Origin: a virus
Reading direction: 5' to 3' (one strand)
Length of the DNA stretch: 64,000 bases
IMG/VR virus record: IMGVR_UViG_3300049846_000568
Span: 64,001 to 128,000 of that record
Shown here: piece by piece, positions 4,093-54,835 of the stretch
Numbering within the stretch: the stretch's first letter is position 1
How the letters are laid out: every line of letters starts with the position of its first letter
Position numbers and translations under genes: made by a program
The notes under the pieces: model-generated
The model's database searches: none
Seen by the model: only the letters and a program-made list of their open reading frames with translations
Told to the model about the DNA's origin: nothing

Positions 4093-4425
4093 TTAGATAG
4101 CTAGGTCCTCAAGTCTCTTAACTCTGATTCGCATACGCTCAACCTGAGCGGCGATCTCGTCAAGGCCAAGGAGTACAAGATCTTGATCACCAGCGTCGGT
4201 CTCATACTGAACACCATCCACCGCTCCACCATTAACAATGGTATCAGATACCTCGTCTAAAAGCTCGTCCATATTGTCTAGCTTGTAATCGCTGTTCTTG
4301 ATATCGAAATAGTACTGACCTATTTCCTGGTTGATCTTTAGACTTTCGCGCACACCCTTGTAACGATGACGCCACCTAACAAAGTTTGGTTGATAGATCT
4401 TAGTTGTATCAGTGTACAGAATCAT
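4093..4425 (-). CDS. Small coiled-coil virion protein
   Basis: TAATG overlap with the upstream gene puts the start at 4425. YKGVRESLKINQEIGQYYFDI resembles the N-terminus of the 418-aa neighbour. Confidence 0.6.
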   Translation of the reverse strand: MILYTDTTKIYQPNFVRWRHRYKGVRESLKINQEIGQYYFDIKNSDYKLDNMDELLDEVSDTIVNGGAVDGVQYETDAGDQDLVLLGLDEIAAQVERMRIRVKRLEDLAI

Positions 4426-7400
4426 TACACAATCCACCAGTTAGTACCGTCAGACACAAACGAGAACGCTGCGTATGGTGTTGACCAGGTCTTCTGCGAA
4501 GGGGTGGCGGCGTTGTCGATATTGCCACTATAGCAGTCAACAATAACAGAATTGGCGTCTGCGGTGATCTTCTTAACCGTGTACATCCTACCCTCATATA
4601 GTGAAGGGTCTGGAAGAATAATGCTCTTACCCGTAGATGTCGTATCGACTAGAATGATAGACTCAGAGATATCTACAACATACTCAGAAGGTGTTGCGGC
4701 GTCTGCGGTTACAGTTGTGATGGGGTTGCGAAGAGCCCTGGTAGAGATATCGACACCAGTTCCCCATCCATCCCCATCCTTATTGTATGGACCGAAAAGC
4801 GTGACCGTGCTTGGATCCAAACCGTTGTCGACATAATAGTTTCCGTACTCACTGTCAAGTTGGAATGCCCCATCCCTGAAATCGGCCCAACGCGCGCCGT
4901 TGTAGTCGTCGTTGATCTGAGTATGTAGAGCAATGCCGTGTGAATTGCCGGTTAGATATGTGGCGTCGGTCGCCGTCGTCATTAGACTGCCGTTCAAATA
5001 GAAGCTGAAACTTGGACCGTCCATTGAAACAGACACTACCGTACCCACAGCGTTGGTACCCAGGAAAGTCTTTAAGGTTGTAAAGGTTCCGTTCACACAC
5101 TTAGAAAAAGCCCAAGCACCATAACTGACGGAAGCAAGAAGTGCATAGAAGTTGTCTGGGTCTTGATACCTCAAAACAAGACCCTGCCAATTCTCGGCTA
5201 CGCCACTACCATCGTCGCCAAACTTTGTACCAACCGCAACATCTGGGGAACCTAGGTTACGGACAACAAGATTCTGCTTACAGTTATACGTAGCAATATT
5301 GGGCGAAATTGTGGTACCGTACTTGAAATTATCGAGTCTCGTTGTTGTGGTGATGGTCTGGTTTGGGCCACCAATACCTATATACTTTGCATTGGCGTTG
5401 GTGTGCTGCAGTACAGCATCCACAATGGTGTATGTATAGGTAGCACGGAGGCCATATGCCACAATCTTTGTGCCGTCATGCACTTGATAGAAGCGCATAA
5501 CATCGTCGTCCCCGACTTCAACACGAATGCCGTAACCAGCACCAGTAAGTACGTCTGTCTCAGCGGCTGCGCTTACTCGGGTAATTACGCCACCAACACA
5601 CTTGTATACAGCATAGCCGCCAAAGGTTGTATTTGGAACCACCATAAGCCAGTTGTTTGCGTCTTGGCAGCGAACAATAATGCCAAGATCGGCGGCGAGA
5701 GACGAAGTGTGGGCGGCGAACAATATCTGAGCGCAGTGAGTTGTGGAGTTAGCATCACGAATAAGCATGTTCTTGTTGCTAGCGCCATTTGCTGTTAGGT
5801 AAAGCTGCTCGCCGTTAATACCCCAAGTACCAGACGTCTGTGTCCAACCGTTATCTACTACACTGGTCGAATCATCGCGATCAAACTCATCAACAAAGTC
5901 TGGGTTTGTAAACTTCGTGCTTACAAGATATGCCTGACCATAATCGTCAATACCCCAACCACCGGTTACTGGTGTCCATCCAGTACCGCCAATATCTGTG
6001 GCGTCGGCGGCTCTTTCAAAATCGTCTGTGATAATTAGAGGATCGCCAGCGCCAGAGTCCCATACGGGCAGGTCAACCTTTGGGGTAACCTCGTCTGACC
6101 AAAAGCCAAGCAGGTTGCGACTTGAGACACCCTCATTGAGGGCGGCTACAATTTCCTCTAACGTTGTCTCAGCAATAACCTTTGCGCCCTCTGCGTTAGG
6201 GTGCAAACCATCCTTAGAGAACCACTTAGCGTTGCTGTTTACTGTCCAAGTAGCCGTAGTACCGCCAAGAGGCGTATCGTTGTCAACCAAACGTACTGTT
6301 GGATCATTAAACCAGTCAACAACAGTCTGAATCCAATCGTTAATGATGTCGTGTACGTCGGGATCTTGTAGGGCGGCCCAGACCCATGAACCGTTTGGTG
6401 GCTGAATCATATTGGAGACCAAAACAAGCGGTGGTTCGTCCGCTTCAATCTGCCAATAATCAAACTTCAGCGTTGCATCACCCTGTGGTACGGTGCCAAC
6501 AACGGCTCCAGTATAGCGAATTTCAATCTCGTGCTGCTCGACCAAGCTTGTTGTCGTTAAGGATGAATCCCTGCCGCTTGTCCCACTCGTGGTTGGAACG
6601 GTAGGAATCCACATACGGTAAATCATTCCCGTTTTCTGATGATAGGTCTGACCAGAACTGGTTGAATAGTTTGTGCCAAACGCTGTACCGTATGCCGCGC
6701 CGCGGCCATTGTTCAGCGTGCCGTGATAAACGCCGTCAAGGTAGATATCGGCGGTGGCGCCTTCGTACCCACCAATGAAACCAAGATCTACCCATACACC
6801 ATCCTGGTAGCGACCCATATCGCTTGGGGTGGTAATGGTTACCTTTGCACCTGGAGAGTTGGTGTAATGGAACCCCGTACCCGAACCCCAGGGATCGCCG
6901 CCAATACTTTCATATGTCCTAGCGGTCCAGCTTCCGGTGTACGCTATCGTTGTTGTGTCTGTGTTCTCGTAGACAGAAGCCGCCCTATACCTAGCAATGA
7001 CGGTCTTATAGGCCTCTTTAAAGGTCCATTCATCCCAGTTATCCGTGCGATAAAACACTGTTGCGTCATTTGTGCCCCACATGGTGAAGACAATGCCCGC
7101 GTCCGCCACACGTGGAGCATCTACAATACCGGGGTTAACGTTCTGAAGAACTGTTTGATAAGTACATGTGCCGTCGTGCCAACGAATCACACCACCAGAA
7201 ATAGCAATATTCTGCACCTGTGTGGGAAGAAGGCCTAGCATAGCCTTGATACGCGCACCGGTGCACTGATTGGCTGCTACACCGATACCGTTTGGGTCCA
7301 TATAAGAATGGCCCGCAATTTTAAGAGATGATACCTGTGGAGGAGTTGGCCCCTGGCTTGTAATCTGCTCGAAGTTTGCGCTATTGAATGAGGTACCGCT

Positions 7401-7700
7401 CGTATGAGCGGTTGTTACCTGATAGGTGTAGCCACGATACCTAACGAGATCGTTTAGGGCATACTCGGTCCCTGCGGCCCAAGTACCAACGGGATTCAGG
7501 TGGGTTTTTGCCGCTTCCGCATCGAGGCGCGACGAGACACTAGCGTGACCACCACTGGGTGTCGCGCCCAGTTCAAGCTCAATCGCCTCAATTGCATCGT
7601 TTGCGTCGGCGTGGATCTGCGCATGGCTGGGGCTATCTTGTGTCTGTGAACTTAGCGGATTGTAGAGTGTATCAAAATCCTCGGGGTAATTAGTGGCCAC
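4425..7700 (-). CDS. Tail fibre/spike-like protein with carbohydrate-binding module, SGNH esterase and lectin-like domains (1091 aa)
   Basis: CBM5/12-like WAAGTEYALNDLVRYRGYTYQ; SGNH blocks GHSY, GTND, DGLHP; ConA/LamG-like domains; fibre-type C-terminus FVSDGTNWWIV. Confidence 0.75.
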   Translation of the reverse strand: MATNYPEDFDTLYNPLSSQTQDSPSHAQIHADANDAIEAIELELGATPSGGHASVSSRLDAEAAKTHLNPVGTWAAGTEYALNDLVRYRGYTYQVTTAHTSGTSFNSANFEQITSQGPTPPQVSSLKIAGHSYMDPNGIGVAANQCTGARIKAMLGLLPTQVQNIAISGGVIRWHDGTCTYQTVLQNVNPGIVDAPRVADAGIVFTMWGTNDATVFYRTDNWDEWTFKEAYKTVIARYRAASVYENTDTTTIAYTGSWTARTYESIGGDPWGSGTGFHYTNSPGAKVTITTPSDMGRYQDGVWVDLGFIGGYEGATADIYLDGVYHGTLNNGRGAAYGTAFGTNYSTSSGQTYHQKTGMIYRMWIPTVPTTSGTSGRDSSLTTTSLVEQHEIEIRYTGAVVGTVPQGDATLKFDYWQIEADEPPLVLVSNMIQPPNGSWVWAALQDPDVHDIINDWIQTVVDWFNDPTVRLVDNDTPLGGTTATWTVNSNAKWFSKDGLHPNAEGAKVIAETTLEEIVAALNEGVSSRNLLGFWSDEVTPKVDLPVWDSGAGDPLIITDDFERAADATDIGGTGWTPVTGGWGIDDYGQAYLVSTKFTNPDFVDEFDRDDSTSVVDNGWTQTSGTWGINGEQLYLTANGASNKNMLIRDANSTTHCAQILFAAHTSSLAADLGIIVRCQDANNWLMVVPNTTFGGYAVYKCVGGVITRVSAAAETDVLTGAGYGIRVEVGDDDVMRFYQVHDGTKIVAYGLRATYTYTIVDAVLQHTNANAKYIGIGGPNQTITTTTRLDNFKYGTTISPNIATYNCKQNLVVRNLGSPDVAVGTKFGDDGSGVAENWQGLVLRYQDPDNFYALLASVSYGAWAFSKCVNGTFTTLKTFLGTNAVGTVVSVSMDGPSFSFYLNGSLMTTATDATYLTGNSHGIALHTQINDDYNGARWADFRDGAFQLDSEYGNYYVDNGLDPSTVTLFGPYNKDGDGWGTGVDISTRALRNPITTVTADAATPSEYVVDISESIILVDTTSTGKSIILPDPSLYEGRMYTVKKITADANSVIVDCYSGNIDNAATPSQKTWSTPYAAFSFVSDGTNWWIV

Positions 7701-7715
7701 TACGGTCTTCTCCAG

Positions 7716-17500: not shown

Positions 17501-19857
17501 GATATATACTGTCCGTTTACGTAGTTACCCGGAGTCAGGCGCTCCCTAACAACATGTGGACCAATCTCTCTCGGCACTGTAAACTTGGGCGTATATTCCT
17601 CGGTCCAAACATACGGTGGCTCATTCTCGTCAAGCTCGGCCGAATCTACATGCTCTACGCTAGAGTTTGTAACCTCAATAGAGTAGACGCGGCTTGAGTT
17701 CACGACCTTACGCAAATCCTCTTCACTCATACTCTCTTCAATAAGCTGCTTAACAGTCTTGGCTACGGTCTTACCGTTGTCTCCGGGTACCTCTAGCCTA
17801 CGCTGCCATACAACTGTTGGATCTGATCGGCTCTTAATACGCTCAACAAACTGATTACGTTCAATCTCACTCTGAGAGAGGATATCGTTAGCGCCATCTG
17901 CGGTGTTGTTGTTGATAACCCAGGATGGACGCCATGGAGATGAGAACGACCAACTACTGCTTAGCGTAAACTCATCACTATCATCAAGGGCACGGCCCTT
18001 CATAGCGTATAGGCAGATGTTGTACAGGAGCTTGTATGCGCCCTCTTGCGCCCAGGCACTCGCCATTTCAGCATAATCCTCTGGGGTACCGGCGTCGTAC
18101 GCTGTATCACCAAGGTTTAAACTAACGAGCTGCCCAGTAGTTGGATGTGCCAAATAGTTTGTGGCGATATCGACGGTGTCAATAATGACCGAACCACCGG
18201 AACTGAATTCCCGACGAATCATTACAGGCTTGTATGTGGTGTCTGCGGAGCTTCTAGCCTTCAGAATTGTCTCGTAGTATGTTGGATTGCTGTAGATGTA
18301 GTGAGATGCCCTATCTCCATTGCTGGACCAAACGGCCATCACATTAACTAGCGCCGGATGAAGAGAATTGTACTCGTCACCAGAGCCATCATTGAAGTCC
18401 CAACCGCCAAGCTGTGTGTCGGCATCGAAAAAGATGTCTGTCGTATTCGAAACAGTAAGTGTGCCAAGAGCCGCATAGTCGTCATTTGCCCCAGGGTAAT
18501 TGACAATAGATCCGTCATATGGGTCTACGAAGCTTGTAAAAGTGCAGCCCAAACCCTGTGGAAGTGAACGTGTTCCGCACTCGATAATGAGAGTGCCGCC
18601 AAGCTGACGCGTAAAGTAATCAATCTTATTTAGGTAGGGTGTGAAATCAAACTCATATGTCTCAGGATGCCAGACAAGGATGTCGAACTCCTGCAGTTGC
18701 GACATGGTGATTGTGTCGAAGTTGACATTCCAATATGTTGCGCTTGTCTTTTCGATTGCACCAGATGGGTTTGCTTTGTTGAGCTTCTCTGTAACTGGAT
18801 TGATGAACTGTAAATTGCCGGCGTTGTAATCACTGACACTCATGTTGTAGAAGACGTACGGAGCAATGGCTCTAGTTCCAGCGGTCCAATTTGGGTTTGT
18901 CCAGTTTGTGCTAACGGTACCGCAGCGAATAACCTGCTTTGATCTTGTAGGGTCGATTCTAACCTTCTCGGTAAAATCGCACGTTACGCGCCACCTAAAG
19001 AGCTGGAACAATCTAGGATCGTTAACCGCTTTCTTGGGCACATATACCTTGTAGCCATCGGCGGCGGCCGTCTTGATGCCAAGGAGTTGCTCTTTTTGAT
19101 TGGTCGGCTTTGTACTGTAAATTCGCTTGAATCTATTGGCCGGGTCGAAGACATCGCTCTCTTCTGGCACATACTGGTAGTAGTGTAGCGGATTTAGTAC
19201 TTCTCTATGATTGATGTTCTGGTTCTTAAACTGCCCATTTGTATCAATCTCTACCTTATTGTACTGAAGGTATAAATTCTCAGCCGTATCCGTATCAACG
19301 TAGGCGTAGACCCTGTAGGCGGTCTGGGCTTCTTCTGCCTCTTCAACCGCTCTCGCCACAGCGATTCTATACTTTGGCTTACCAGTCTCGTCTGTGTATT
19401 CCTTGCCGTTGTTGTCAACAACCTTTACGTTAGGAATGGTGAGAGGGTGGACCGTATCAAAAGACGAGTAACCCTTAATGTCTATGTGGAAGTACCGGCT
19501 TACGTGCACGTAGGGAAGGATTGACTCAGCCGTGTATTCGTTACCGGGACGAAGTTCAAAATCCTCATTGATACTGAACACATCAGCGACGGATGGATAT
19601 TCGTCAAAGATGGCCTGATTACCAAACTCATCCTGCAGAATACCGAGTTCGTCTGCGTACATGAGCTTACATGCGCCAAGCGTACCAGTTGTGTTTTCGG
19701 GCGTAATATTCGATGTATCGATGATGATCAGATTGTTCTCCGGGTTAAGAGCGGGGGCCTTAACCCAAGACAGATTTACATCACCATCAGGAACACGGAC
19801 ACCCCTACGAATGGCCTTTTCGTTACCCGCAGTAGATTGGTTGCGAAATCTGTCCAT
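14569..19857 (-). CDS. Large baseplate/tail protein with an internal peptidoglycan-binding domain (1762 aa)
   Basis: PG_binding_1-like LNRGDWGKVVYWMQTALN...DGYWGNVTHDAVLRFQ...DGALD at about 16995-17200; C-terminal LDTRRRGGG. Confidence 0.7.
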   Translation of the reverse strand: MDRFRNQSTAGNEKAIRRGVRVPDGDVNLSWVKAPALNPENNLIIIDTSNITPENTTGTLGACKLMYADELGILQDEFGNQAIFDEYPSVADVFSINEDFELRPGNEYTAESILPYVHVSRYFHIDIKGYSSFDTVHPLTIPNVKVVDNNGKEYTDETGKPKYRIAVARAVEEAEEAQTAYRVYAYVDTDTAENLYLQYNKVEIDTNGQFKNQNINHREVLNPLHYYQYVPEESDVFDPANRFKRIYSTKPTNQKEQLLGIKTAAADGYKVYVPKKAVNDPRLFQLFRWRVTCDFTEKVRIDPTRSKQVIRCGTVSTNWTNPNWTAGTRAIAPYVFYNMSVSDYNAGNLQFINPVTEKLNKANPSGAIEKTSATYWNVNFDTITMSQLQEFDILVWHPETYEFDFTPYLNKIDYFTRQLGGTLIIECGTRSLPQGLGCTFTSFVDPYDGSIVNYPGANDDYAALGTLTVSNTTDIFFDADTQLGGWDFNDGSGDEYNSLHPALVNVMAVWSSNGDRASHYIYSNPTYYETILKARSSADTTYKPVMIRREFSSGGSVIIDTVDIATNYLAHPTTGQLVSLNLGDTAYDAGTPEDYAEMASAWAQEGAYKLLYNICLYAMKGRALDDSDEFTLSSSWSFSSPWRPSWVINNNTADGANDILSQSEIERNQFVERIKSRSDPTVVWQRRLEVPGDNGKTVAKTVKQLIEESMSEEDLRKVVNSSRVYSIEVTNSSVEHVDSAELDENEPPYVWTEEYTPKFTVPREIGPHVVRERLTPGNYVNGQYISRTYPPKPYGMRVDVKYADTAQDLDTKTVTWTATGTAVETINIVDRRTETWASSGSGTTFTSYMPFDFGVRHPYGIDTFAAANYYNAHSNHNYPSYAAFFRLNRGDWGKVVYWMQTALNYFIFWGYMSGPYVPTDGYWGNVTHDAVLRFQSTFGALEQDGALDAEMLSMMGSQILRLQSDYYGAFGSYIEDWVYPDAIPDNALASPNTTFFQSPLFQMSRSGISDGNSTFTWSKRSNYGGANTPNYIWDIIQISLNRSAKIWGVTLIPHVEGAQGSLGGSMLFEALSVHTASNLPGYNGFVGSGLANFPTGYVNVPVNARVAHGEPYFVPFNPVYGDTVMVRLGQDTPTGIGRILQFGVSDIQIHTDQSYYSQTNIALERSGSAVVTTGRDVVIALTPNYTGNGTLSNVNWSNVTTNLPSDIVASISHSGILTLRNLRVHNQSGTNYKSGPYIGRTTSNPAVSTTPTADVYRVAGYTYYSKDEHGRINPVKESGWITKVDGLKLFCNASGKPFGFPEMPTAVGPREAQRHYATISLSALDVDPEVMVGFYDIKNQEFILSQEGKPEMTYLEWISRGPENVFVAAITDYEVDKKADLPADGGPLLPYRLAMPVYGICTSPGSQIKVEPLSANLGPHDMWGLPVKTGSFIRPIAVPAVNDLPTTNAWLEGYAGTIVKAFYAVPEAKSGSWSIIYGRPFIDVKDESPVIVTDTKIQVRQAPIHMVTVPTVVSSYGTAADPRRPVFTVSTRASINDSWTALTWEDIADYNISTGEIELVSPLDSTDPALVKVDYTTARLNYYLTYADGNQLNLNPYPGHNRDLVGKPIYVYALPQFVKDEENRIISDSVRTTTLSWTLDPSIFNRLDPDYNPLAVQLAVVYITSTLDINDLVMLDTRRRGGGAKDTATLQEIEQLISESNAYWDVTNATGMTYQKGGFILIRLPAELKDQFPNKQDVIDTIRRNITVGVQFRIEDLEGKEW

Positions 19858-19860
19858 GTA

Positions 19861-22800
19861 CTAAAACTCCCTATAATCGGGGCGTGCTTCTGTTAGGTCG
19901 TTCACTGATGTGGGCGTTCTCAATGGTCCCAGTGCGCCGAGCTGATACTGGCGATATCTATCGACCGCATACCAATCAGATGGGTTAACTTCCCATGTTA
20001 CTGGTGTCGCTGGCGCGAGTGGTGTAGCCTCATCGTAGAAGGTTGGCCAAGCGTAGGTACCGTTGGGGGCCAAATCTGGAATGGTCTCTGTTCTCTCACT
20101 GAACTGAACGGCGTTGCGGGGTAGACCATTAAGGTTTTCGACTCCATGAATCGAATCGATATACTCAACCCAGAACACAACATCGCCAGTCAAGCTCCAG
20201 TCTGGTGTTGCCGGGTCATTCCAGCCACCCGGAGTGGCGCCATACCCATCAATACTGCCATAAGCCCTGACATTGTCTATAGTAATCCCATCATCGGTTA
20301 TAGCAAACCCGTGATCAGAAGCCGATACATTTCCTGCTTGCACCGTCCAAGAATCCACCAATACACCATTGATATACCACTCTATTGACGTGCCCTCAAA
20401 CACTGCCCTAACAGTATCCCCGTCCGCATATGGGACTCCTGTATCGTTAAATACAACCGGACCGCCACCGTCTACCTCGAATACTTGCCAGTTGGCACCG
20501 TATCCACTAGCTACACCAATACCGAGATACTGATTGGAATTCAGGTAACGGACATACATGAGATCGCCGCTACCGCCTACAGTACCGCCAGAGAATGTCC
20601 AAGTTGATTCTACCGAACCATCAGCCTCACAGGTGGCAAATGCCTGACCTCCACCCGATGCTGGGAAGGTCTCCACCTTGTTGTTGTACACCCTAAAAAT
20701 TGAGGGACCAAAACCACTCCACGGTCCACCAAGCTCGGCGTTGTGGTTCTGGAGATCTTTATTGTTGATGTCGGTGAAAGTATCAATCAAAACGGGAGAA
20801 TGATACGACATGTTTGGTGATGCTGTCTCACTCTCTAGGGCCACCATCCAATAACCTGGAGACCATGGCGTAGCGGCCATAAATGGTCCTACGTTGAAGA
20901 CACCGTTTTCATCGGCCACAACTCGACCAGCCTCATTGTCCCAACCGGGAGACGCCGCGGCAGTTTCGTACTGGGTCGTCCAAACATCCTTCATATAGCG
21001 GCCCTTACGCCAATAAACTACGGCATAAGGTACTGGTGTATGTGAATCATCTTCAACTCGACCATATAGCTCAACACTAGAATTGCCGTCAGCGGGAATC
21101 TGCTGAACATTTGGCACTGCTGCAAGTGTATAGGTTGGCGTCGCCTTTGGAGTAATGTGGTAGTTCACAGTTGCCGACGCATCACCCGATACTGTCACCA
21201 TACCGGAGAGGTCCGTGTTTGTGCTGGCCGATAGAAGCTTAACCACAGCAAAACCGTCATCATTTGTTGTTACGGTTGTATAATCAAGCGTACCAAATGT
21301 GGTGCCGAGATTGAATGTGGCGTTGGGCTTTGGATTGCCATGAATATCTAACGACAGAAGCGTAACTATCAAGTAGTCTTGACCATCAGCGATAATGCTT
21401 GATGGGCTAATCCTTACCTCAACCTTATCCAAATCATACTCATTGTGGGAGATATAGATAAAGCCCTCATCAAGTACTGTATAGAAGGTGCTCAACGGAA
21501 GCTGGACCGGTGTAGCTGGATCGAACTTTGAGATCTCGTAGTTAATCGAAACCTCAGCGGGCAGTTCCTGATCAAACACCAATCGAGTCTTATTTTGGTT
21601 ATCTACATCCACATATTCGTGATCTGCGTAGAACGAGCGACTGACCTTGTAAGTCAACTCATATTCATGATCAACGTTTGTATTGTCTGATGTAGTAATT
21701 GCGTTAGTTTCCGTAAAGGTGGCTGCTGCTACTGTTTCGCCAGTATTAAGGTTGGTTACTGATATGTCGTAAATATCTTCATAAGCAGCATATAGGACCG
21801 TTGAACCTGTACCATAGACCGTTTGAGTGGTGTATTGGGTAAATCCTGGTGTCGCCTCGTCCCAAAAGGCGACCTGCCTATACTCCCTAGGTGTCAGCTC
21901 GTTTGTCTTAACGATGATTGGGGCACCCTGGCGAGCAACCCTTGAAAGGATCTTCGCGTCTGATGTAATTGTCGCTGTCTCTTCGGATGGCGTAGCATAG
22001 AAGTAGTATTCGTCGTTACGATCGTAGAACCACCCAGAATGAACCTGCGGATACCACTGCTCTGGGATATTTGGGTTCAATCTTGCGCGAACCACAAATG
22101 GTCCATACGAATATACGCCCCCATCTAGTGTTTCATCTACGGCGTTAGCGGGGTACGTAACTGCGGTGCCGTCATCGAATGATGGTTGCACTGTGTTAGA
22201 GTCGAGCCATACAATTACCCGACCATTGTCAATTGACTCCACGCCAATCCAAGTTACAACGTAATCTTCCGTATTTGGAATGCCGAAGTCATCCCTACTA
22301 ACCGTCATCGTCTCTAGATTATAGTTTGAGTTCCCTGGTTGTGGAGCAATTCCATTACGCCATGGGCCATTCTCGTCAACGACACCACTAAAGGTGTTTA
22401 GGCAGTCATACTCAAATAGCTCCCAGTACGGGCAGTTGGCTACGGGGTAAAGAGCACCAACTGGTGTGGCGTTTTCGTCAACAGCCTCAAACACAAACTC
22501 TGCAGTATCTGCCGTAAATGTCTTTTGTCCGTTAGTCCAAGTCGAAGACCCATTACAACGAACATACTCTGCGGGGATGAACAGGCCTGAACCGTCTACA
22601 TCTGTTGTGTAGCCACCATAGCTATTGTTATCGTCTGCGTCTGTTGTAACAATCTGAACCTTATAGGTACGGAGTCCGGTCTCGTATGGGTGCCAAATTA
22701 TTGCTGGTACAGGAATGGTAAAGCTTTGTAGTCCTTGGTCCGGAAGTGCCCCATTGATAGATACGGTATAGCGGTGCTTATCTGAGACCCACGTATCAGT

Positions 22801-24897
22801 GGAAGAAGCCGTTTCCTTGCTCTCCATTGAAATCGACACCGGGTGGAATGCAGAGATAAGGGGGGTAGAACCACCATCAATCGTAATTGGTGTGGCGCCG
22901 TCTGCGTATTCTAGCAGGGATGTTGTATCGCCACTAAACCAAGCGGTGTAGGTATCGCTCGATGGCATATACGCATAGTATGGCGAGCCGCCGTTGTAGT
23001 GCCAGTTGCCATTATAGATCTTGCAGCTTGTGATGTCCGCCCAAGTAAAACTATAGCTTGAGCTTACCGTATGTTCGCCACCGGTAGAGTCAACCCAAAT
23101 CATCCCAGGGACACTCTGTCCGTCCTGAGTCATGAAGAAGTGCTCAACTACGCTATTTGTAGTAGGTGTTGCGGACTGCTCACCGTTATTTGTTGTGAGC
23201 GAGAAAATGTGACGAAGAGTTCCCTTGCCAGTAACAGCAAGCTCGATGGTAAAGTATGCGGTTGTATCCGGGTTCTCGTACTTAGTGTAAGGTACTTCAC
23301 CCCAAATATTAACGTCAAAGGTGATCTTACGAAACTCGTCGCGTGTCTGCTTCCTGCGACCACGCAGCTTTACGTGTCCCGTAAACTCTCTAGCACCTGT
23401 TACCTCATCTGGGCGATAGACATATAGATCGTTACCGTCACCAATACCAGACTGCGTATCATCATCATCAAGTGGAGTAGCATCATATCTGCGCGCTAGT
23501 TCGGAATAACCTTCGCCTTCCTGTCCACCAGCATCCCATGTAATGTTGCCCCAAACAAAGTTGCCCCACGTACTTGGATACTCTTTGGCCAAGGATTGAA
23601 TTAAGTTGATGAACTTCTGTGTCGGCACGCCGTCAAGGCCAACAAAGTCTGTATGATTCTCCAGGTCATCAATCTCATACACCTCAGGAGTTGCCCCTGG
23701 GAAGTAAGAATCCGGTGTGGAGTCTACAGGATCCTGGAAGTACTGCCACAAACTAAGCTCTCGCCTAAGGGCCAACTTGAACGCCTCTACACCAACACCT
23801 GGCTTGTTGATAAACACATCAAGAATACGACCCTTGAAGTATTCGTTTGTCTCAAGATGGAGTCTACTAAGGTCTACCTTTAGGCCAAACTCGTCAAACC
23901 AGTTCCAGATATGGTGTGGCGATGCAGTATAGGCACTGTAGTTGATGAGGATTTCATCATAGTTCTTGTTGAGGAAGATGACGTCCTCAACATCGTCATG
24001 CCAAAAACCATATTCGTCATCTGTAAGATCGTAGAAGTCTTCCAAATTAGAACAACGAGACAGTTCAACACCATCACCACTAATCTGGTAAACGGCATTT
24101 GGCACGTCTGCAATGATGTAGATCCAAGCCTTCTGGTTTACGTCTGCCGTGTTGATAAACTGCTGAGCGTAGACGTAAGCTATATCATCTCGAAGGTCAT
24201 CTAACCACTCGCCAGCAACTGCACTAAGCAGCATGCCGGATAGCGAGGTTGGGGTGGCCAGTTCAGGTGTTGCGGGATCTTCGTTCTCAATCTCGCGAAC
24301 GGCCATCCACTCAGGAAACTTGTTCTGAATATCACGAACAGACTTGTAGGAAGGCTTGCCCTGAAGCGGTTCGCCAATCCTGACCCTAATGATAAGTTCG
24401 ACATCCGCTGACGAAAAGTCCTGATCACTACTAAGGCGAAGAACTACCCTACCATAACGATATGAGGATACCTCACCAATGTAATCAAGGTTTGTAACGC
24501 CAGCCTTAAATGCCCACTCATCGGGAAACTGCGCCGTAGCATCATCTATCGTATACAGGTCAAGAGCGCAGTTAACATCCGCTACACCGTTCAGTGTGGA
24601 AAAAGTAATGTCATAGTCTACAACATCAATACGACCAGATTGGTCAATAAACCTGTCATTGTCGATGATACCAATCTCTGTCTCTGTGGCGGAGAGCTGG
24701 TCATAGCCGACATATGTGTTATTACCTAAGCTGTCAAGACCGTAATTAGACTTAATTGTAGAGTAGTTGCGGTAAGATGGCGTCGCCATCTCGGATGCGG
24801 CACTCTGGTTATCGTAGAAATCGATGATACCAGAAGTCCAAGTGTTATCACTTTTTGTAAAGTCTTCTGTAACAAGTCTTAGGTAATAGGTCTTCAA
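19861..24897 (-). CDS. Large baseplate protein with Ig-like and lectin-like domains, Ala-Thr-Pro rich (1678 aa)
   Basis: Wedge-like FDEFGLKVDLSRLHLETNEYFKGRILDV; invasin/Big_1-like IIADGQD and IPADGNS modules; 17 ATP tripeptides. Confidence 0.7.
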   Translation of the reverse strand: MKTYYLRLVTEDFTKSDNTWTSGIIDFYDNQSAASEMATPSYRNYSTIKSNYGLDSLGNNTYVGYDQLSATETEIGIIDNDRFIDQSGRIDVVDYDITFSTLNGVADVNCALDLYTIDDATAQFPDEWAFKAGVTNLDYIGEVSSYRYGRVVLRLSSDQDFSSADVELIIRVRIGEPLQGKPSYKSVRDIQNKFPEWMAVREIENEDPATPELATPTSLSGMLLSAVAGEWLDDLRDDIAYVYAQQFINTADVNQKAWIYIIADVPNAVYQISGDGVELSRCSNLEDFYDLTDDEYGFWHDDVEDVIFLNKNYDEILINYSAYTASPHHIWNWFDEFGLKVDLSRLHLETNEYFKGRILDVFINKPGVGVEAFKLALRRELSLWQYFQDPVDSTPDSYFPGATPEVYEIDDLENHTDFVGLDGVPTQKFINLIQSLAKEYPSTWGNFVWGNITWDAGGQEGEGYSELARRYDATPLDDDDTQSGIGDGNDLYVYRPDEVTGAREFTGHVKLRGRRKQTRDEFRKITFDVNIWGEVPYTKYENPDTTAYFTIELAVTGKGTLRHIFSLTTNNGEQSATPTTNSVVEHFFMTQDGQSVPGMIWVDSTGGEHTVSSSYSFTWADITSCKIYNGNWHYNGGSPYYAYMPSSDTYTAWFSGDTTSLLEYADGATPITIDGGSTPLISAFHPVSISMESKETASSTDTWVSDKHRYTVSINGALPDQGLQSFTIPVPAIIWHPYETGLRTYKVQIVTTDADDNNSYGGYTTDVDGSGLFIPAEYVRCNGSSTWTNGQKTFTADTAEFVFEAVDENATPVGALYPVANCPYWELFEYDCLNTFSGVVDENGPWRNGIAPQPGNSNYNLETMTVSRDDFGIPNTEDYVVTWIGVESIDNGRVIVWLDSNTVQPSFDDGTAVTYPANAVDETLDGGVYSYGPFVVRARLNPNIPEQWYPQVHSGWFYDRNDEYYFYATPSEETATITSDAKILSRVARQGAPIIVKTNELTPREYRQVAFWDEATPGFTQYTTQTVYGTGSTVLYAAYEDIYDISVTNLNTGETVAAATFTETNAITTSDNTNVDHEYELTYKVSRSFYADHEYVDVDNQNKTRLVFDQELPAEVSINYEISKFDPATPVQLPLSTFYTVLDEGFIYISHNEYDLDKVEVRISPSSIIADGQDYLIVTLLSLDIHGNPKPNATFNLGTTFGTLDYTTVTTNDDGFAVVKLLSASTNTDLSGMVTVSGDASATVNYHITPKATPTYTLAAVPNVQQIPADGNSSVELYGRVEDDSHTPVPYAVVYWRKGRYMKDVWTTQYETAAASPGWDNEAGRVVADENGVFNVGPFMAATPWSPGYWMVALESETASPNMSYHSPVLIDTFTDINNKDLQNHNAELGGPWSGFGPSIFRVYNNKVETFPASGGGQAFATCEADGSVESTWTFSGGTVGGSGDLMYVRYLNSNQYLGIGVASGYGANWQVFEVDGGGPVVFNDTGVPYADGDTVRAVFEGTSIEWYINGVLVDSWTVQAGNVSASDHGFAITDDGITIDNVRAYGSIDGYGATPGGWNDPATPDWSLTGDVVFWVEYIDSIHGVENLNGLPRNAVQFSERTETIPDLAPNGTYAWPTFYDEATPLAPATPVTWEVNPSDWYAVDRYRQYQLGALGPLRTPTSVNDLTEARPDYREF

Positions 24898-24907
24898 CTT
24901 CTACCCT

Positions 24908-26095
24908 TTAGTTGTCTAAGTAGATCGTGTGCTCCGAAGTTACTCCGTGAACTGGATGGACGAACTGCAAGTGCTGAGATGGTCTGCCCATAACGGCAAG
25001 GGTCTCTTGCGCATAAGTGTTGTAACTTTCGGGCGACCCACTGATCCTGAGGATTGAGCTACCAAGAGTCATCTTGCAGTTCTGGTGATAATGCCCCATG
25101 AATACGTCACCGAAAGGTTCGGGCACTGCGCCATCCTTCCAACCCATTACCTTCTTGTAGTAGGTGTGGCTAGACGTAGGAGGAGGTAGCTGGTCTCCGT
25201 GTATTAGTAACGTGCCATACTCGCCAATGGTATCAACAGCGTAGAAATTGCTTTCGCCATGACCATCTGGGATATCAAAGGTTACTCTTGGCTCATTTGC
25301 AAACATGTGCTCCACAATCTTGTAGAGCAGTCTGTCCATATTTGTCTCAGAGTTGTACTCTCTCCTACTGCGGCCACCAATTGATCCATGGTTGCCAATT
25401 ACGCCAACAAAGTGAACGTGCTCAAACTCCTGTAGAAGTCTGAGAATCATGTCTCGGATAATCTCCGGACCATTTACACCCACCTGCTTATACAGGCTTG
25501 AATCGATTAGGTGTGACTGACCAGAGAAGATATCCTCACCCTCAACAATGTCACCAATAAACCAAAGGTGGATATCTCTTACGGGATGATCTGCCCTCTG
25601 AACATTTGTTACCTCAATAATTCTCTCTGTATACTTAGCAATTCTCTCGCGGCATACTTCTGAGTTGTAGGTAGGGGTAACCTTGCCTAGCTGCCAGTCA
25701 GCGCAAACGGCTACTGCTGTTTCCTCGTCTCCACCAGAATAGCGAATCTTTGGCGGATCAACCTGAGGCGGGCGGATCTTCTCTACAGCCTCCTTCATAG
25801 CATCGTACACGGCGTCAACAGCGTGATGCTTGATGATCTTGTGCTTGTCTGCCAATCGGGCGAGACGAACTACCTCTTTACGAAGGAAGATGACTTCCTC
25901 TTCAAGATCTAGGTCGTCTAGACTATATGCTGGGGCCACGCTTTTAGCGACAGCTTCAGCAACATCTTGAGTCCAAGCTCTACGCTTCGCTTCATTCTCC
26001 GCGTTTCGCTTACATCTAGGACCGCAATACTTTTGATTGTGTACTACCGGCTCAAAAGTGTTGCTGCAATCTGGTCCAGCGCATTCTCTATCCAT
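24908..26095 (-). CDS. Calcineurin-like metallophosphoesterase with N-terminal Cys4 zinc finger
   Basis: Motifs DWQ, GDIVEG, GNHG, HGD, GHYH; N-terminal CAGPDC...YCGPRC. Confidence 0.8.
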   Translation of the reverse strand: MDRECAGPDCSNTFEPVVHNQKYCGPRCKRNAENEAKRRAWTQDVAEAVAKSVAPAYSLDDLDLEEEVIFLRKEVVRLARLADKHKIIKHHAVDAVYDAMKEAVEKIRPPQVDPPKIRYSGGDEETAVAVCADWQLGKVTPTYNSEVCRERIAKYTERIIEVTNVQRADHPVRDIHLWFIGDIVEGEDIFSGQSHLIDSSLYKQVGVNGPEIIRDMILRLLQEFEHVHFVGVIGNHGSIGGRSRREYNSETNMDRLLYKIVEHMFANEPRVTFDIPDGHGESNFYAVDTIGEYGTLLIHGDQLPPPTSSHTYYKKVMGWKDGAVPEPFGDVFMGHYHQNCKMTLGSSILRISGSPESYNTYAQETLAVMGRPSQHLQFVHPVHGVTSEHTIYLDN

Positions 26096-26107: not shown

Positions 26108-27247
26108 TTATGAGGCTATCTGTATTGTGATGCTACCAGGGATTACCTGCTCGTCGTCTTTGACTACGTAGTTCCTACGAATTGTCTCAACGCCGCGCGG
26201 TGCGAATCTATTGATACGCACGTCCTGGATAGCGGATGATGTGTCCATGATCGCCTGGATGAGTCTATTATACACCAAAGTATCGCCCGGAAGAAGCGAA
26301 TTGATGTAACGCATCACTGAAACTCTGACCATGTCTGCTAGGTTGTCTTCAACAACCGAAGATCCTAGCACAATCGATACTGAGATATCAACCAGGATCG
26401 TGCTCGGTTCCTTAACAATCATTCGTACGCCAACTGGCCGTACTTGGTCCATCGCAACTTTAGCCGAGGCGTAGACACCCACCGATGAGGTCGGGTTCTC
26501 CGCGATTACAAGAGCTTCAAAGGTTCCCATACCATAAGGAGCCTGGCGAATCTTCACATCGCGTACACCATTGACATTTAGGGCGGCGAACCTAACTGCA
26601 TCTGAAGTTCCGGAACTTGCTACACGGATAGCCTTAACTAGTCGTACTCGGAAGTTTTGATCGCTCTCATATCCAGGCTGTGGAGCAATAGCCTTAGGGT
26701 TTGTACAGTTTACCGTAGTACCTGGAGGAGAGGTAAAGTTATGGGTAGTCAGCGTATTAGCGGCGGCGCTGAACATCCCGTCGCTGAAACTTGGACGAAT
26801 CGAAGCAAAGACCTTTGTACGGCCCGCCTGAATGATCGCCTCGGCCGTTGTATCGAACGCGAGCTGCCTACCAATGAACGAATCTATTCCCGTATATACC
26901 CGAGTTCCTGAAGGAATGACAATATCGGAACCATAAGGCGTATCAATGTAGAAATAAAACGCTCCAAGCTGCGCATTAACGGCAGCCATATCCGATAAAG
27001 TACGGCGTCTAATGCCATAGAGTTCCCCCAAAAGATCTAATGATCTACCTGTAGCGGTAGAAATAACAGACTGAGCAAGGTTGTACTCTAAGGCATCATA
27101 CATGTCGCCCAACTGCTCACTAATGGCCTCGGTAAATGCCCGTGCTACAGAACCTGGACTAGTAGAAGTGATGGGAGTATCCTTCTCAAGCCGCCAAAGG
27201 GCCTCTCTCAAGATCTCTGCTCGTCTCTTTCTAGCATAAATTGCCAT
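26108..27247 (-). CDS. Baseplate J-like wedge protein
   Basis: PGSVARAF, ATGRSLDLLGELYGIRR, GYESDQNFRVR, GTSDAV are typical Baseplate_J features. Confidence 0.85.
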   Translation of the reverse strand: MAIYARKRRAEILREALWRLEKDTPITSTSPGSVARAFTEAISEQLGDMYDALEYNLAQSVISTATGRSLDLLGELYGIRRRTLSDMAAVNAQLGAFYFYIDTPYGSDIVIPSGTRVYTGIDSFIGRQLAFDTTAEAIIQAGRTKVFASIRPSFSDGMFSAAANTLTTHNFTSPPGTTVNCTNPKAIAPQPGYESDQNFRVRLVKAIRVASSGTSDAVRFAALNVNGVRDVKIRQAPYGMGTFEALVIAENPTSSVGVYASAKVAMDQVRPVGVRMIVKEPSTILVDISVSIVLGSSVVEDNLADMVRVSVMRYINSLLPGDTLVYNRLIQAIMDTSSAIQDVRINRFAPRGVETIRRNYVVKDDEQVIPGSITIQIAS

Positions 27248-53548: not shown

Positions 53549-54835
53549 TTAAAGGTTAATGCTTACCTGAACTTCGATGTTGCGAAGTTCGAATGCTGGG
53601 GTTAGGATCAGGTCGACCACAGCCTTAGCGTCCCGTGGGAAGTAGGTGACTGTGAAGTCGCTGGAGATCAGGGCCCCTAGCTTCTGCATGCCCATCAGGC
53701 CATTTGTAATACCTGTCTCTAGAGCATTGCGGATCTCAATTGTTGCTGCCTCACCGATGAAGTTCTGGGCAACATTGCGAACAACCTGTACTGCGTCGTT
53801 CACGATACGGACTGTGGTAAGTCTACGATACTGTGAAGTATCCTTGGCGAAGGTTAGGGCATCTACCCAAACAGCCTCGCGCTGGAAGTTCAGCGCTACA
53901 GGCACAACACCCTCATCGATCAGGTTCTGCTGCTGCGTCTTTGTTGGGACATAACGCAGAGCTGCGACGTTGAAGATACGCTTCATTGTGGGTGCTGACC
54001 ACGAATCTAGCTGTGTGATATAGCCTGCGTACAAAGCTGCACCGTTTGACCAACCCCAGCTGTAGGTATCCTCGTAGCCTAGTGGCTTGACCTCTACACC
54101 AACGATTGAGATATATGGACCAACTGCGCCCATGCTGTCGTCATTACGATCTGCTAGGTTTGTGATTGCGCCGCCAATGTGAGACGAAACTGCAGATGGC
54201 GTCATACCACCGGAGGTGTCAGCCTGCCCAGTCCATGGCTTGATGCCCATCACGGCAAAGCATGGGTGGGAGTTCTGAGTAATCGTCTTGCATTCTGTCG
54301 CTACCTTGAAAGCCCAGTTACGAGCTACGATCGCACTATTGTCTGCGTAGAAGCCAAACTCTGTTGTGCCAGGGGTGGCTGGTGTAGAGTGGTCATCCCA
54401 GTCATCTGAGCTTGAGCCACGACCCCATGGAACAACGATATCTGCCTGGGCTGCCTCTACAGCAGACCATGCATCGGCCCATAGGTCTGTACCACCACGG
54501 CCAGTATATGCGGCCGAGCTAATTGTGCCCATAGTGTGATCAAAAACTGTGTCAGATGGCAGGGCAACAGCACTAATGCGTGTTGCGCCACCCGCTACAG
54601 CCTCTAGATATCCACGAACGATGTCAGACTCTTCACCAAATACTGTTCCAAGTTCCTGCTCACTTGACACATTGTAGATGTCAAGGTCGTAAATCGCACG
54701 GCCAGAACTATTTTCTGTGCCATCGGCGGTTGTGCGACGCCCGAGAATCAGAACCCTTGGCCCCTGTGGGACATCTGTTCTGGATACCGTATAGAAACGG
54801 TCCTTAATTACAGTACTAACGCCTGGGAGTGCCAA
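53549..54835 (-). CDS. Tail sheath protein
   Basis: MALPGV N-terminus; sheath C-terminal YRRLTTVRIV...FIGE...LTPAFELRNIEVQV. GGAGG RBS with TTG start. Confidence 0.85.
   Translation of the reverse strand: MALPGVSTVIKDRFYTVSRTDVPQGPRVLILGRRTTADGTENSSGRAIYDLDIYNVSSEQELGTVFGEESDIVRGYLEAVAGGATRISAVALPSDTVFDHTMGTISSAAYTGRGGTDLWADAWSAVEAAQADIVVPWGRGSSSDDWDDHSTPATPGTTEFGFYADNSAIVARNWAFKVATECKTITQNSHPCFAVMGIKPWTGQADTSGGMTPSAVSSHIGGAITNLADRNDDSMGAVGPYISIVGVEVKPLGYEDTYSWGWSNGAALYAGYITQLDSWSAPTMKRIFNVAALRYVPTKTQQQNLIDEGVVPVALNFQREAVWVDALTFAKDTSQYRRLTTVRIVNDAVQVVRNVAQNFIGEAATIEIRNALETGITNGLMGMQKLGALISSDFTVTYFPRDAKAVVDLILTPAFELRNIEVQVSINL

What the first reader, a model, noticed from the sequence alone, without database searches (positions are those of the whole stretch)
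19861..24897. Ala-Thr-Pro tripeptide occurs 17 times in one baseplate protein: possible modification sequon
Seen: 17 ATP (plus 3 ASP and 2 STP) dispersed over 1678 aa in unrelated contexts, with varied codons (GCG ACG CCA, GCA ACA CCT, GCC ACC CCA), so this is not a DNA repeat. My rough composition-based expectation is about 1. ATP also occurs in the 1091-aa fibre (3x), the sheath, the tail-completion C-terminus, head closure and the 2092-2709 protein. I found none in the 2979-, 2209-, 1762- or 1273-aa proteins. Established: actinobacterial O-mannosylation favours Thr/Ser in Ala/Pro contexts, and some mycobacteriophages glycosylate their virions with phage-encoded glycosyltransferases. Inference: ATP is a selected signal in surface loops, for O-glycosylation, proline-directed phosphorylation or docking of a decoration protein.
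Basis: partly seen in the sequence, partly recalled or inferred. Interest (0 to 1): 0.82.

Follow-up and report, generated by a model that had tools for sequence, protein, structure and literature searches.

The report
Ala-Thr-Pro tag on phage baseplate protein
One large outer tail protein of an uncultured phage carries 17 scattered copies of the three-residue tag Ala-Thr-Pro (chance gives about 0.6); the tag is kept in about 200 relatives but has vanished as a block in a few, so some other factor probably reads it, most likely a phage sugar-adding enzyme, though no chemistry has been shown.

Summary
The 1678-aa protein (window 19861-24897, minus strand) has 17 ATP against 0.58 expected (Poisson p about 1e-19). 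The highest count in 20,000 shuffles was 5. The motif is in frame only and uses varied codons.

ATP is the commonest tripeptide in nearly all of about 210 full-length orthologues (6-21 copies each, 25-87% identity, GC 33-51%). Some sites are ancient. Lineage-specific sites arise 4-5 times more often than for permuted tripeptides.

Seven orthologues have 0-1 ATP. They fall in at least three separate lineages nested among ATP-rich ones. At the old sites they mostly keep Pro but lose Thr. This all-or-none pattern points to a trans-acting reader, not a structural motif.

The best candidate reader is a pair of adjacent GT2 glycosyltransferase genes, 3.8-5.8 kb before the window start. One resembles the flagellin O-GlcNAc transferase domain of GmaR. 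The pair is present in 29 of 30 ATP-rich records and 7 of 7 complete genomes. It is missing from its syntenic slot in the only ATP-less lineage I could read.

The in-window GT/methyltransferase cassette is not conserved and is not the partner.

This scan had already found the same motif on other genomes and reached the same reading. No glycan has been demonstrated.

The parts
19861..24897 (-). Gene for the 1678-aa outer baseplate/tail-fibre-position protein that carries 17 ATP, 2 STP and 3 ASP. It lies directly downstream of the Baseplate_J-like gene (26108-27247) and a conserved 395-aa gene (24908-26095). It contains one Big_1/Invasin_D3 Ig-like domain at residues 1159-1247.
   Evidence: The nine bases encoding each ATP, as residue:window range, are 38:24778-24786; 209:24265-24273; 214:24250-24258; 402:23686-23694; 473:23473-23481; 576:23164-23172; 668:22888-22896; 810:22462-22470; 968:21988-21996; 1015:21847-21855; 1128:21508-21516; 1252:21136-21144; 1342:20866-20874; 1554:20230-20238; 1563:20203-20211; 1624:20020-20028; 1630:20002-20010.
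23686..23694 (-). The most conserved site (ATP at residues 402-404, context YFPG-ATP-EVYEID). It is ATP in 124 of 127 ATP-rich orthologues. The six ATP-less orthologues in that alignment read ATP, AYP, AYP, ALP, AHP and SDP.
21508..21516 (-). Conserved site ATP at residues 1128-1130 (FDP-ATP-VQLPL). It sits at the end of a beta domain, just before the low-confidence linker that leads into the Big_1 domain. It is ATP in 70 of 86 orthologues and AKP in ATP-less P0060.
20242..20811 (-). Insertion of about 190 aa (residues about 1363-1552). It is missing from most orthologues, including the 87%-identical P0001, and is modelled at low confidence. Its sequence looks like a LamG/ConA-type jelly roll. 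It has no ATP inside it; ATP at 1554 and 1563 flank its C-terminal side.
   Evidence: Some orthologues carry PF13385. The domain assignment here is by eye only.
4425..7700 (-). Second-tier carrier: a 1091-aa fibre-like protein (CBM_5_12 plus a GDSL-like esterase region) with 3 ATP against 0.47 expected.
53549..54835 (-). Second-tier carrier: a 428-aa tail protein with one STP and one ATP in a loop. That loop holds ATP or STP in 5 of 6 compared genomes.
59526..60771 (-). In-window 'GT' (60052-60771) plus methyltransferase (59526-60080) cassette. I considered it as the modifying enzyme and rejected it as the universal partner.
   Evidence: The 239-aa protein has no Pfam GT match. It has no homologue in 7 of 7 complete ATP-rich relatives or in the five fetched genomes.

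Best explanation
[Ala/Ser]-Thr-Pro is a short acceptor signal (sequon) for O-glycosylation of the Thr. The modification is made in the cytoplasm, before or during tail assembly, by phage-encoded soluble GT-A glycosyltransferases.

The main substrate is this outer baseplate/tail-fibre-position protein, with about 17 sites per chain. All but one of the 17 Thr lie in predicted coil: loops, a helix start or domain linkers. A few head, neck and tail proteins carry one to three sites.

The most likely enzymes are two adjacent core GT2 genes at genome 58233-58931 and 59342-60178, which is 3.8-5.8 kb before the window start. One resembles the GT domain of GmaR. One enzyme may initiate and the other extend the glycan. 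A GT-A gene in the head module and an accessory GT17/GT2/RmlD-like/methyltransferase cluster may elaborate the glycan further.

Shown: the enrichment, the selection on the motif, its block loss, the core status of the GT pair and the absence of the pair in one ATP-less lineage. Inferred: that the GTs act on this protein, that Thr is the acceptor, and the benefit. The likely benefit is a glycan coat on the most exposed tail protein, giving stability, shielding or adsorption; I did not test this.
For: (1) Enrichment is at the peptide level: 17 against 0.58 expected, and in frame only.

(2) It is family-wide. ATP is the top tripeptide in 83 of the first 86 homologues. 138 of 146 full-length database orthologues have 6-21 copies, and all 65 IMG/VR orthologues have 7-19. 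This protein is the top ATP-enriched ORF in each of 6 genomes.

(3) Selection acts on the motif itself. ATP occupies 188 alignment columns, 94 of them singletons, against 16-24 singletons for the permutations APT, TAP and PTA. The flanks are weak (-2 D/E, -1 and +1 small). The usual substitutes are STP and then ASP, which keep a hydroxyl residue.

(4) Loss is all-or-none. Seven orthologues have 0-1 ATP, and the nearest relatives of each are ATP-rich. The P0112 and P0098/P0101 placements have support 1.0.

(5) Thr is the dispensable, function-specific residue. At 11 conserved sites the ATP-less proteins keep Pro in 66%, Ala in 42% and Thr in 22% of cells, against 84%, 72% and 76% in ATP-rich proteins. 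P0060 reads DTP/AEP/VEP/AKP/ANP.

(6) In the AlphaFold models 16 of 17 Thr are in coil, several in low-confidence loops or at domain boundaries.

(7) Both GT2 genes are found in 29 of 30 ATP-rich records and 7 of 7 complete genomes at 42-63% identity. The one record without them ends before the slot.

(8) In the ATP-less P0060 lineage, 19 core genes were compared across the syntenic span from DnaB to the tape-measure-like gene. Only the two GT2 genes are functionally missing.

(9) The best solved-structure match of the 232-aa GT is the GmaR GT domain (E 1.7e-5, with the DxD region aligned). GmaR transfers GlcNAc to flagellin in the cytoplasm (PMC9638930).

(10) No ThyA-type hydroxymethylase occurs in 5 complete relatives, which argues against the GTs modifying hydroxymethylated DNA bases.
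Against: There is no chemical evidence of any modification and no cultured member.

The link between GT loss and motif loss rests on one lineage. The GTs could also lie elsewhere on that incomplete genome. The other ATP-less contigs end before the slot.

The GT pair sits among nucleotide-metabolism genes, and a Dam DNA methyltransferase occupies the slot in the ATP-less lineage. A role in DNA or cell-envelope modification is therefore not excluded.

The GT pair is a core gene pair of the whole ATP-rich group, so co-presence alone carries little information.

The GmaR match is weak, and the phage enzyme lacks GmaR's TPR and antirepressor parts.

The only GenBank phage with a homologue of the 232-aa GT (31% identity) shows no ATP enrichment.

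Coil location is also what any Pro-containing motif would show (83% of the other Pro are in coil). Solvent exposure could not be computed.
Confidence: 0.55

Rival explanations
1. ATP is a short linear docking motif. It is read by a partner protein, such as a decoration or fibre protein, an assembly chaperone or a host factor, and is not covalently modified. The GT co-loss would then be coincidental.
For: The all-or-none loss, the de novo gains and the loop location fit any trans-acting reader. The GT link has n = 1.
Against: Within the 19-gene syntenic span, no candidate partner gene other than the GTs is lost in the ATP-less lineage. Seventeen dispersed, structurally unrelated sites per chain are many for a docking motif. 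The tolerated substitutions (T to S at the centre, A to S before it) keep a hydroxyl acceptor, which is more typical of an enzyme acceptor site.
Confidence: 0.15
2. The Thr carries a different post-translational modification, made by a host or phage enzyme. Candidates are proline-directed phosphorylation, or hydroxylation or another modification of the Pro.
For: S/T-P is the classic minimal site of proline-directed kinases (established knowledge). The block-loss pattern fits any enzyme.
Against: This record has no Pkinase match, and 5 complete relatives give only one sub-threshold match. This record has no match to PF13640, a 2OG-Fe(II) oxygenase family that includes prolyl hydroxylases. Proline-directed kinases are not known as a general bacterial system (my own knowledge). 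A host enzyme would not explain the concurrent loss of phage genes.
Confidence: 0.1
3. ATP is an intrinsic structural element, such as a loop, strand cap or linker motif of this fold, kept by ordinary structural constraint and with no reader.
For: Several sites are ancient and positionally conserved: residue 402 in 82 of 86 orthologues and residue 1128 in 70 of 86. Many lie just before a strand or helix. Pro is largely retained even in ATP-less proteins.
Against: Collinear orthologues at 33-49% identity over nearly their whole length do without the motif. The loss is concerted and repeated. Thr drops from 76% to 22% retention once the motif is abandoned, about what I would expect for an unconstrained residue at this divergence (my estimate, not computed). 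New sites arise in non-homologous positions 4-5 times more often than control tripeptides. The sites lie in different structural settings: helix start, hairpin, linker and disordered loop.
Confidence: 0.1
4. The motif is a glycosylation sequon, but the enzyme is the core GT-A gene in the head module (genome 134045-134806) or a host enzyme, not the GT2 pair. The pair would serve another purpose, such as DNA or envelope modification.
For: The 253-aa head-module gene is present in 5 of 5 complete relatives. It looks like PF13704-type GT-A enzymes, including GLT25-like and 640-670-aa Bacillota GT2 proteins. It lies between the portal and protease/scaffold genes and so is probably co-expressed with virion genes. 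The GT2 pair lies among nucleotide-metabolism genes.
Against: Its status in ATP-less lineages is unknown because I could not reach it. It has no match among solved structures and only a sub-threshold Pfam match.
Confidence: 0.1

Closest known systems
Virion O-glycosylation of mycobacteriophages by phage-encoded glycosyltransferases (Freeman et al. 2023, Cell Host Microbe 31:1216; cited from PMC12582341 and PMC10568470, the paper itself was not held)
   Same: Phage-encoded soluble GTs are proposed to attach glycans to structural virion proteins inside the host cell. The GT genes are embedded in or near the structural and replication modules.
   Different: As I recall that work (not checked here), capsid and tail-tube subunits are modified near their C-termini and no tripeptide sequon is defined. 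Here the main carrier is one giant baseplate/fibre-position protein with about 17 dispersed [A/S]-T-P sites. The phages are uncultured 145-230-kb myophage-like genomes with 33-51% GC. Nothing has been shown chemically.
GmaR, the Listeria monocytogenes flagellin O-GlcNAc transferase (PMC9638930; PDB 22ao)
   Same: It is the best solved-structure match of the 232-aa core GT, with the GT-A fold and the DxD region aligned. It is a cytoplasmic enzyme that O-glycosylates Ser/Thr on a structural filament protein before assembly.
   Different: The match is only E 1.7e-5. The phage protein is 232 aa and lacks GmaR's TPR, linker and antirepressor domains. I do not know GmaR's sequon and did not compare it.
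Sequon-directed general protein glycosylation in bacteria, such as Bacteroidetes O-glycosylation at D-(S/T)-(A/I/L/V/M/T) and Campylobacter N-glycosylation at D/E-X-N-X-S/T (my own knowledge)
   Same: A three- to five-residue motif marks acceptor sites on many unrelated loops, and the motif is meaningful only when the enzyme is present.
   Different: Those systems act in the periplasm with lipid-linked glycans and membrane oligosaccharyltransferases. Here the motif is [A/S]-T-P, the substrates are cytoplasmic virion proteins, and the candidate enzymes are small soluble GT2 proteins.
Thr-Pro preference of eukaryotic mucin-type O-glycosylation (the XTPXP motif of GalNAc-transferases; my own knowledge)
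   Same: Thr followed by Pro, in exposed loops, with a small residue before it.
   Different: The enzymes are unrelated (GT27, in the Golgi). No Pro enrichment is seen two residues after the motif's Pro.
Bacillus jumbo phage 0305phi8-36 group and Moorella phage MTATph1 virion structural proteins (phrog_21059)
   Same: These are the only cultured-phage relatives of the protein itself, at 23-31% identity over residues about 185-550.
   Different: They share only one N-terminal region. The distant partial homologues with 0-1 ATP (for example P0167-P0201) lack the motif.

Membership tests
Phage virion glycosylation by phage-encoded GTs (mycobacteriophage type) | The phage genome encodes glycosyltransferases | tested here: met
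   Pfam finds GT17, GT2 (two proteins) and Glyco_tranf_2_4. A head-module GT-A-like gene is supported by Atlas features and structure.
Phage virion glycosylation by phage-encoded GTs (mycobacteriophage type) | Glycans are covalently attached to virion proteins | not testable with these tools
   This needs glycoproteomics or glycan staining of virions or of co-expressed protein.
Phage virion glycosylation by phage-encoded GTs (mycobacteriophage type) | Acceptor sites lie in C-terminal regions of the capsid and tail-tube subunits | tested here: not met
   The major capsid protein (genome 130420-131472) has no ATP or STP. The sites are dispersed along a baseplate/fibre-position protein. The definition of this feature is from my memory of the paper.
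Sequon-directed protein glycosylation | A short motif is strongly over-represented in the substrates relative to composition | tested here: met
   17 against 0.58 expected. ATP is the top tripeptide in 83 of the first 86 homologues, and 138 of 146 full-length orthologues carry 6-21 copies.
Sequon-directed protein glycosylation | The motif is maintained only where the enzyme is present | tested here: inconclusive
   The GT pair is in 29 of 30 ATP-rich records and absent from its slot in one ATP-less lineage. The other ATP-less lineages could not be read.
Sequon-directed protein glycosylation | The central residue is a hydroxyl (or amide) acceptor and is the residue under motif-specific selection | tested here: met
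   The substitutes in ATP-rich proteins are STP and ASP. In ATP-less proteins Thr retention falls to 22% while Pro stays at 66%.
GmaR-type protein O-GlcNAc transferase | A GT-A (GT2) catalytic domain with a DxD motif | tested here: met
   PF13704 E 1.6e-8. The alignment to GmaR chain 22ao_A shows 'AIDCDE' against 'AIDADE'.
GmaR-type protein O-GlcNAc transferase | TPR and antirepressor domains C-terminal to the GT domain | tested here: not met
   The phage protein is 232 aa, a GT domain only. I therefore do not file it as a GmaR orthologue.
   PF02366 has no match in 5 complete relatives. Virion proteins are assembled in the cytoplasm (established knowledge).
Big_1 / invasin-type Ig-like domain proteins | A match to Pfam PF02369/PF09134 above the gathering score | tested here: met
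   Residues 1159-1247 score 36.4 and 35.0 bits, against cut-offs of 34.9 and 33. This is one domain only; the rest of the protein has no Pfam family.

The most novel reading that the evidence does not exclude
A large group of uncultured aquatic and soil jumbo phages runs its own cytoplasmic, sequon-directed O-glycosylation system. Small soluble GT2 enzymes would recognise the three-residue tag [Ala/Ser]-Thr-Pro in exposed loops and coat the outermost baseplate/fibre protein, and a few head and tail proteins, with a phage-made and sometimes methylated or deoxy-sugar glycan. That would be the first defined O-glycosylation sequon for phage virions, and a minimal portable tag-plus-enzyme pair.
Probability: 0.5. 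Interest if true: 0.85.

Novelty: new variant of a known kind. Interest (0 to 1): 0.7.

Why it matters
Glycosylation of phage virions by phage-encoded enzymes has so far been shown only for a few mycobacteriophages, without a defined acceptor motif.

If [A/S]-T-P is a true sequon, modified virion proteins could be predicted from sequence alone across hundreds of uncultured phage genomes. It would also identify the tail's outermost protein as a glycoprotein, which bears on adsorption, stability and recognition by host defences or grazers. Finally, it would give a three-residue tag with small soluble transferases for making O-glycoproteins in the bacterial cytoplasm.

The natural ATP-less lineages offer ready-made controls.

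Tried and rejected
- **DNA-level motif:** rejected. The pattern GC.AC.CC is in frame only (17/1/1 by frame) and is not enriched on the other strand.
- **Hidden repeat domain:** rejected. Only ATP is enriched, whereas the truly repetitive fibres of this genome show many co-enriched tripeptides. The flanks carry little information.
- **In-window GT/MT cassette as the enzyme:** rejected as the universal partner. The GT17, the 293-aa GT2 and the RmlD-like gene of the accessory cluster are also not universal.
- **Fold search of the 1000-residue model against the PDB:** no meaningful match.
- **ATP-less relatives in IMG/VR:** I queried P0060, P0098 and P0113 and found none. Logan and ENA contigs cannot be searched whole.
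- **Walking along contigs:** this reached the GT slot only in the P0060 lineage. The contigs of P0098, P0101, P0112, P0113, P0116 and P0202, and of the ATP-rich sister P0055, end too early.
- **A cultured phage with the 232-aa GT:** the only GenBank phage record with a match is the uncultured GX15bay genome from mangrove soil (31% identity, many GTs). It has no ATP enrichment (9 against 5 expected), so it is uninformative.
- **Rival enzyme searches:** the searches for kinase, a 2OG-Fe(II) oxygenase family that includes prolyl hydroxylases (PF13640, this record only), PMT and ThyA-type hydroxymethylase were negative or sub-threshold.
- **Solvent accessibility:** not computed, because model coordinates are not returned.
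Full report
**1. The observation**

The window is part of a 145,808-bp virus record (window = record 64001-128000; CheckV completeness 69%). It has 49.7% GC, and nearly all genes in the window lie on the minus strand.

The ORF at 19861-24897 (-) encodes 1678 aa. Composition predicts 0.58 ATP, giving Poisson p = 1.6e-19. In 20,000 shuffles the maximum was 5.

ATP accounts for 17 of 24 A.P, 17 of 23 .TP and 17 of 24 AT. tripeptides. The permutations APT, TAP, PTA and TPA do not occur in this protein; PAT occurs 4 times, in part by overlap with ATP as PATP.

The codons vary. The nucleotide pattern GC.AC.CC occurs 17/1/1 times in the three frames of the gene, so the signal is in the peptide.

In the whole genome only one other tripeptide-in-protein case is as extreme, and that one belongs to a truly repetitive fibre in which many tripeptides are co-enriched. 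Here ATP stands alone. The 2979-, 2209-, 1762- and 1273-aa proteins have none.

**2. What the protein is**

The gene follows a Baseplate_J-like gene (26108-27247) and a conserved 395-aa gene. It precedes a 1762-aa protein with a peptidoglycan-binding domain and further fibre-like proteins. That is the position of a tail fibre or peripheral baseplate protein.

Only one Ig-like Big_1/Invasin_D3 domain (residues 1159-1247) and a PHROG 'virion structural protein' region (residues 226-385) are recognised. Cultured relatives (Bacillus 0305phi8-36-like jumbo phages, Moorella MTATph1) share only about residues 185-550 at 23-31% identity.

AlphaFold models built with a 46-sequence alignment (residues 1-1000, pLDDT 81; residues 961-1678, pLDDT 71) show a chain of mostly beta domains with one helical region. 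A fold search gave nothing useful.

**3. The motif is a family trait under selection of its own**

- The first search gave 86 homologues at 31-87% identity. ATP is the commonest tripeptide in 83 of them.
- Adding the exhaustive profile-free search, 138 of 146 full-length orthologues have 6-21 ATP (median 13).
- All 65 complete IMG/VR orthologues have 7-19, across 33-51% GC.
- In each of six genomes compared, this orthologue is by far the most ATP-enriched ORF.

Some sites are ancient: residue 402 is ATP in 82 of 86 orthologues, 1128 in 70, 214 in 60 and 473 in 53. But ATP occupies 188 alignment columns, 94 of them in a single sequence. The composition-matched permutations APT, TAP and PTA give 16-24 singletons, so new sites are fixed 4-5 times more often than neutral expectation.

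The flanks are nearly uninformative: D/E at -2, a small residue at -1 and a small residue just after the Pro. Where an ATP-rich protein lacks ATP at a conserved site, the usual replacement is STP and then ASP. The effective motif is therefore [A/S]-[T>S]-P. STP rivals ATP in the low-GC clades.

**4. Block loss**

Seven full-length, collinear orthologues have 0-1 ATP: P0060, P0098, P0101, P0202, P0112, P0113 and P0116. One has 4, and none has 2, 3 or 5.

They are not one clade. The nearest relatives of each are ATP-rich:
- P0060 is nearest to P0057, P0051 and P0055 (14-19 ATP, 47-52% identity).
- The P0098/P0101/P0202 clade is nearest to P0046 (12 ATP).
- P0112 sits inside a clade with 11-12 ATP, with support 1.0.

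This means at least three independent losses, and probably five.

At the 11 most conserved sites the ATP-less proteins keep Pro in 66% of cells, Ala in 42% and Thr in 22%. ATP-rich proteins keep 84%, 72% and 76%. For example, P0060 reads DTP, AEP, VEP, AKP and ANP. At the best-conserved site the ATP-less proteins read AYP, AYP, ALP, AHP and SDP.

So the fold does not need the Thr. Its conservation elsewhere must serve something that is either present or absent as a whole. That is the signature of a trans-acting reader with Thr at its centre.

**5. Where the sites sit**

By DSSP on the models, 16 of 17 motif Thr are in coil. Other Thr are in coil in 81 of 142 cases (Fisher p = 0.003), but other Pro reach 83%. 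Coil location is therefore consistent with exposure but not diagnostic.

The settings differ: helix starts (209, 214), hairpin loops (1342), domain boundaries on both sides of the Big_1 domain (1128, 1252), and low-confidence loops (473, 668, 810, 1554, 1563). I could not compute solvent exposure.

**6. Candidate reader**

Earlier notes of this scan pointed to several GT genes, and I tested them.

- *In-window cassette.* The 'GT' at 60052-60771 has no Pfam GT match. It is absent from all five fetched relatives and from 7 of 7 complete ATP-rich genomes. It is not the partner.
- *Accessory cluster.* The GT17, one GT2 and the RmlD-like gene are not universal.
- *Core GT-A genes.* Three are core. 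The first two are an adjacent pair at genome 58233-58931 (232 aa, PF13704) and 59342-60178 (278 aa, PF00535, E 2e-14). The pair is found in 29 of 30 ATP-rich records and 7 of 7 complete ones at 42-63% identity; the one miss is a contig that ends before the slot. The third is a 253-aa gene between portal and protease/scaffold, present in 5 of 5 complete relatives and GT-A-like by Atlas features and structure.

The 232-aa protein's best solved-structure match is the GT domain of GmaR, with the DxD region aligned. GmaR is the cytoplasmic enzyme that puts GlcNAc on Listeria flagellin.

**7. Natural experiment**

For the ATP-less P0060 lineage I walked along Logan contigs from the tape-measure-like gene to DnaB. 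Of 19 genes in that span that are shared by all five ATP-rich genomes, 16 are present. ThyX is replaced by a divergent Thy1-family gene. Only the two GT2 genes are gone. Their slot holds small ORFs and a Dam-type methyltransferase.

This matches the prediction, but it is a single lineage on an incomplete genome. The other ATP-less contigs end before the slot.

The neighbourhood (RNR, ThyX, dCMP deaminase, DnaB) and the Dam replacement raise the possibility that the pair modifies DNA. Against that, five complete relatives have no ThyA-type hydroxymethylase. In this genome an RmlD-like gene, methyltransferases and further GTs are inserted next to the pair, which looks like glycan building rather than base modification.

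**8. Other substrates**

Outside this protein the genome is not globally enriched (15 ATP against about 10.7 expected). A few sites in other virion proteins are nevertheless conserved across the six genomes:
- GATPT in the 255-aa head-module protein, in 6 of 6.
- Two sites in the 262-aa protein next to the capsid gene.
- One ATP/STP loop in the 428-aa tail protein.

One relative has a second giant protein with 11 ATP.

**9. Verdict**

The motif is a recognition signal for a trans-acting factor (my estimate about 0.85). The most likely factor is a phage GT that O-glycosylates the Thr (about 0.55 for the GT2 pair specifically, with the head-module GT as a variant). Docking, another modification and a purely structural role remain at about 0.1-0.15 each.

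Compared with known mycobacteriophage virion glycosylation, this would be a new variant: a defined tripeptide sequon, a baseplate/fibre main target and a different phage group.

Other agents of this scan reached the same reading on related genomes, including the co-loss of two GT genes in one lineage. I reproduced those points independently here, but they rest on the same public data and are not independent evidence.

Noticed in passing
L020-L029, L043, L046-L052 and about 25 other IMG/VR loci, around locus position 10001-10700: In 37 low-GC relatives the first 56-180 codons of the orthologue are in a different reading frame or ORF from the rest of the gene. All three stop codons follow in the original frame, so this is not a recoded stop. 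The gene is either split in two or needs a frameshift.
   Followed up: partly
window 20242-20811 (-), residues about 1363-1552: An insertion of about 190 aa that looks like a LamG/ConA-type jelly roll. It is absent from the 87%-identical homologue P0001 and from most orthologues, which suggests a recently acquired binding module.
   Followed up: no
L143:12859-19239 (ATP-less P0060 lineage): The slot that holds the two GT2 genes in ATP-rich phages contains a Dam-type DNA methyltransferase here. The region is also peppered with homing-endonuclease-like genes (Endonuclease_7, HNH_3, LAGLIDADG, HNH).
   Followed up: partly
window 24908-26095 (-): This 395-aa protein between Baseplate_J and the ATP-rich protein matches phrog_284, annotated 'exonuclease' (E 1e-43). 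It sits inside the baseplate module and is 57-71% identical in four of the compared relatives (28% over a short stretch in G001, no match in G002). It is probably a baseplate protein and the PHROG label is misleading.
   Followed up: no
G002 (IMGVR_UViG_3300013121_000027), a 1618-aa ORF related to genome 143755-144477 of this record: A second giant protein in a 231-kb relative carries 11 ATP and 2 STP (p about 1e-9). Its short homologue here (240 aa, weak fn3 match) has none.
   Followed up: no
window 14569-19857 (-) and 4425-7700 (-): The 1762-aa neighbour has a PG_binding_1 domain (residues 896-955). The 1091-aa fibre-like protein has a CBM_5_12 module and a GDSL-type esterase region. This fits a tail that binds and cuts cell-wall polymers.
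   Followed up: no
L148 (MK557849.1, Caudovirales GX15bay) 7105-18249: This 52-kb mangrove-soil phage genome has eight annotated glycosyl-, rhamnosyl- or galactosyltransferase genes and a methyltransferase just upstream of the terminase. No tripeptide is enriched in its virion proteins.
   Followed up: partly
G002:C1:17656-18027 (+): A sub-threshold Pkinase-like match (E 1.8e-6, 24 bits) in one of five complete relatives only.
   Followed up: no
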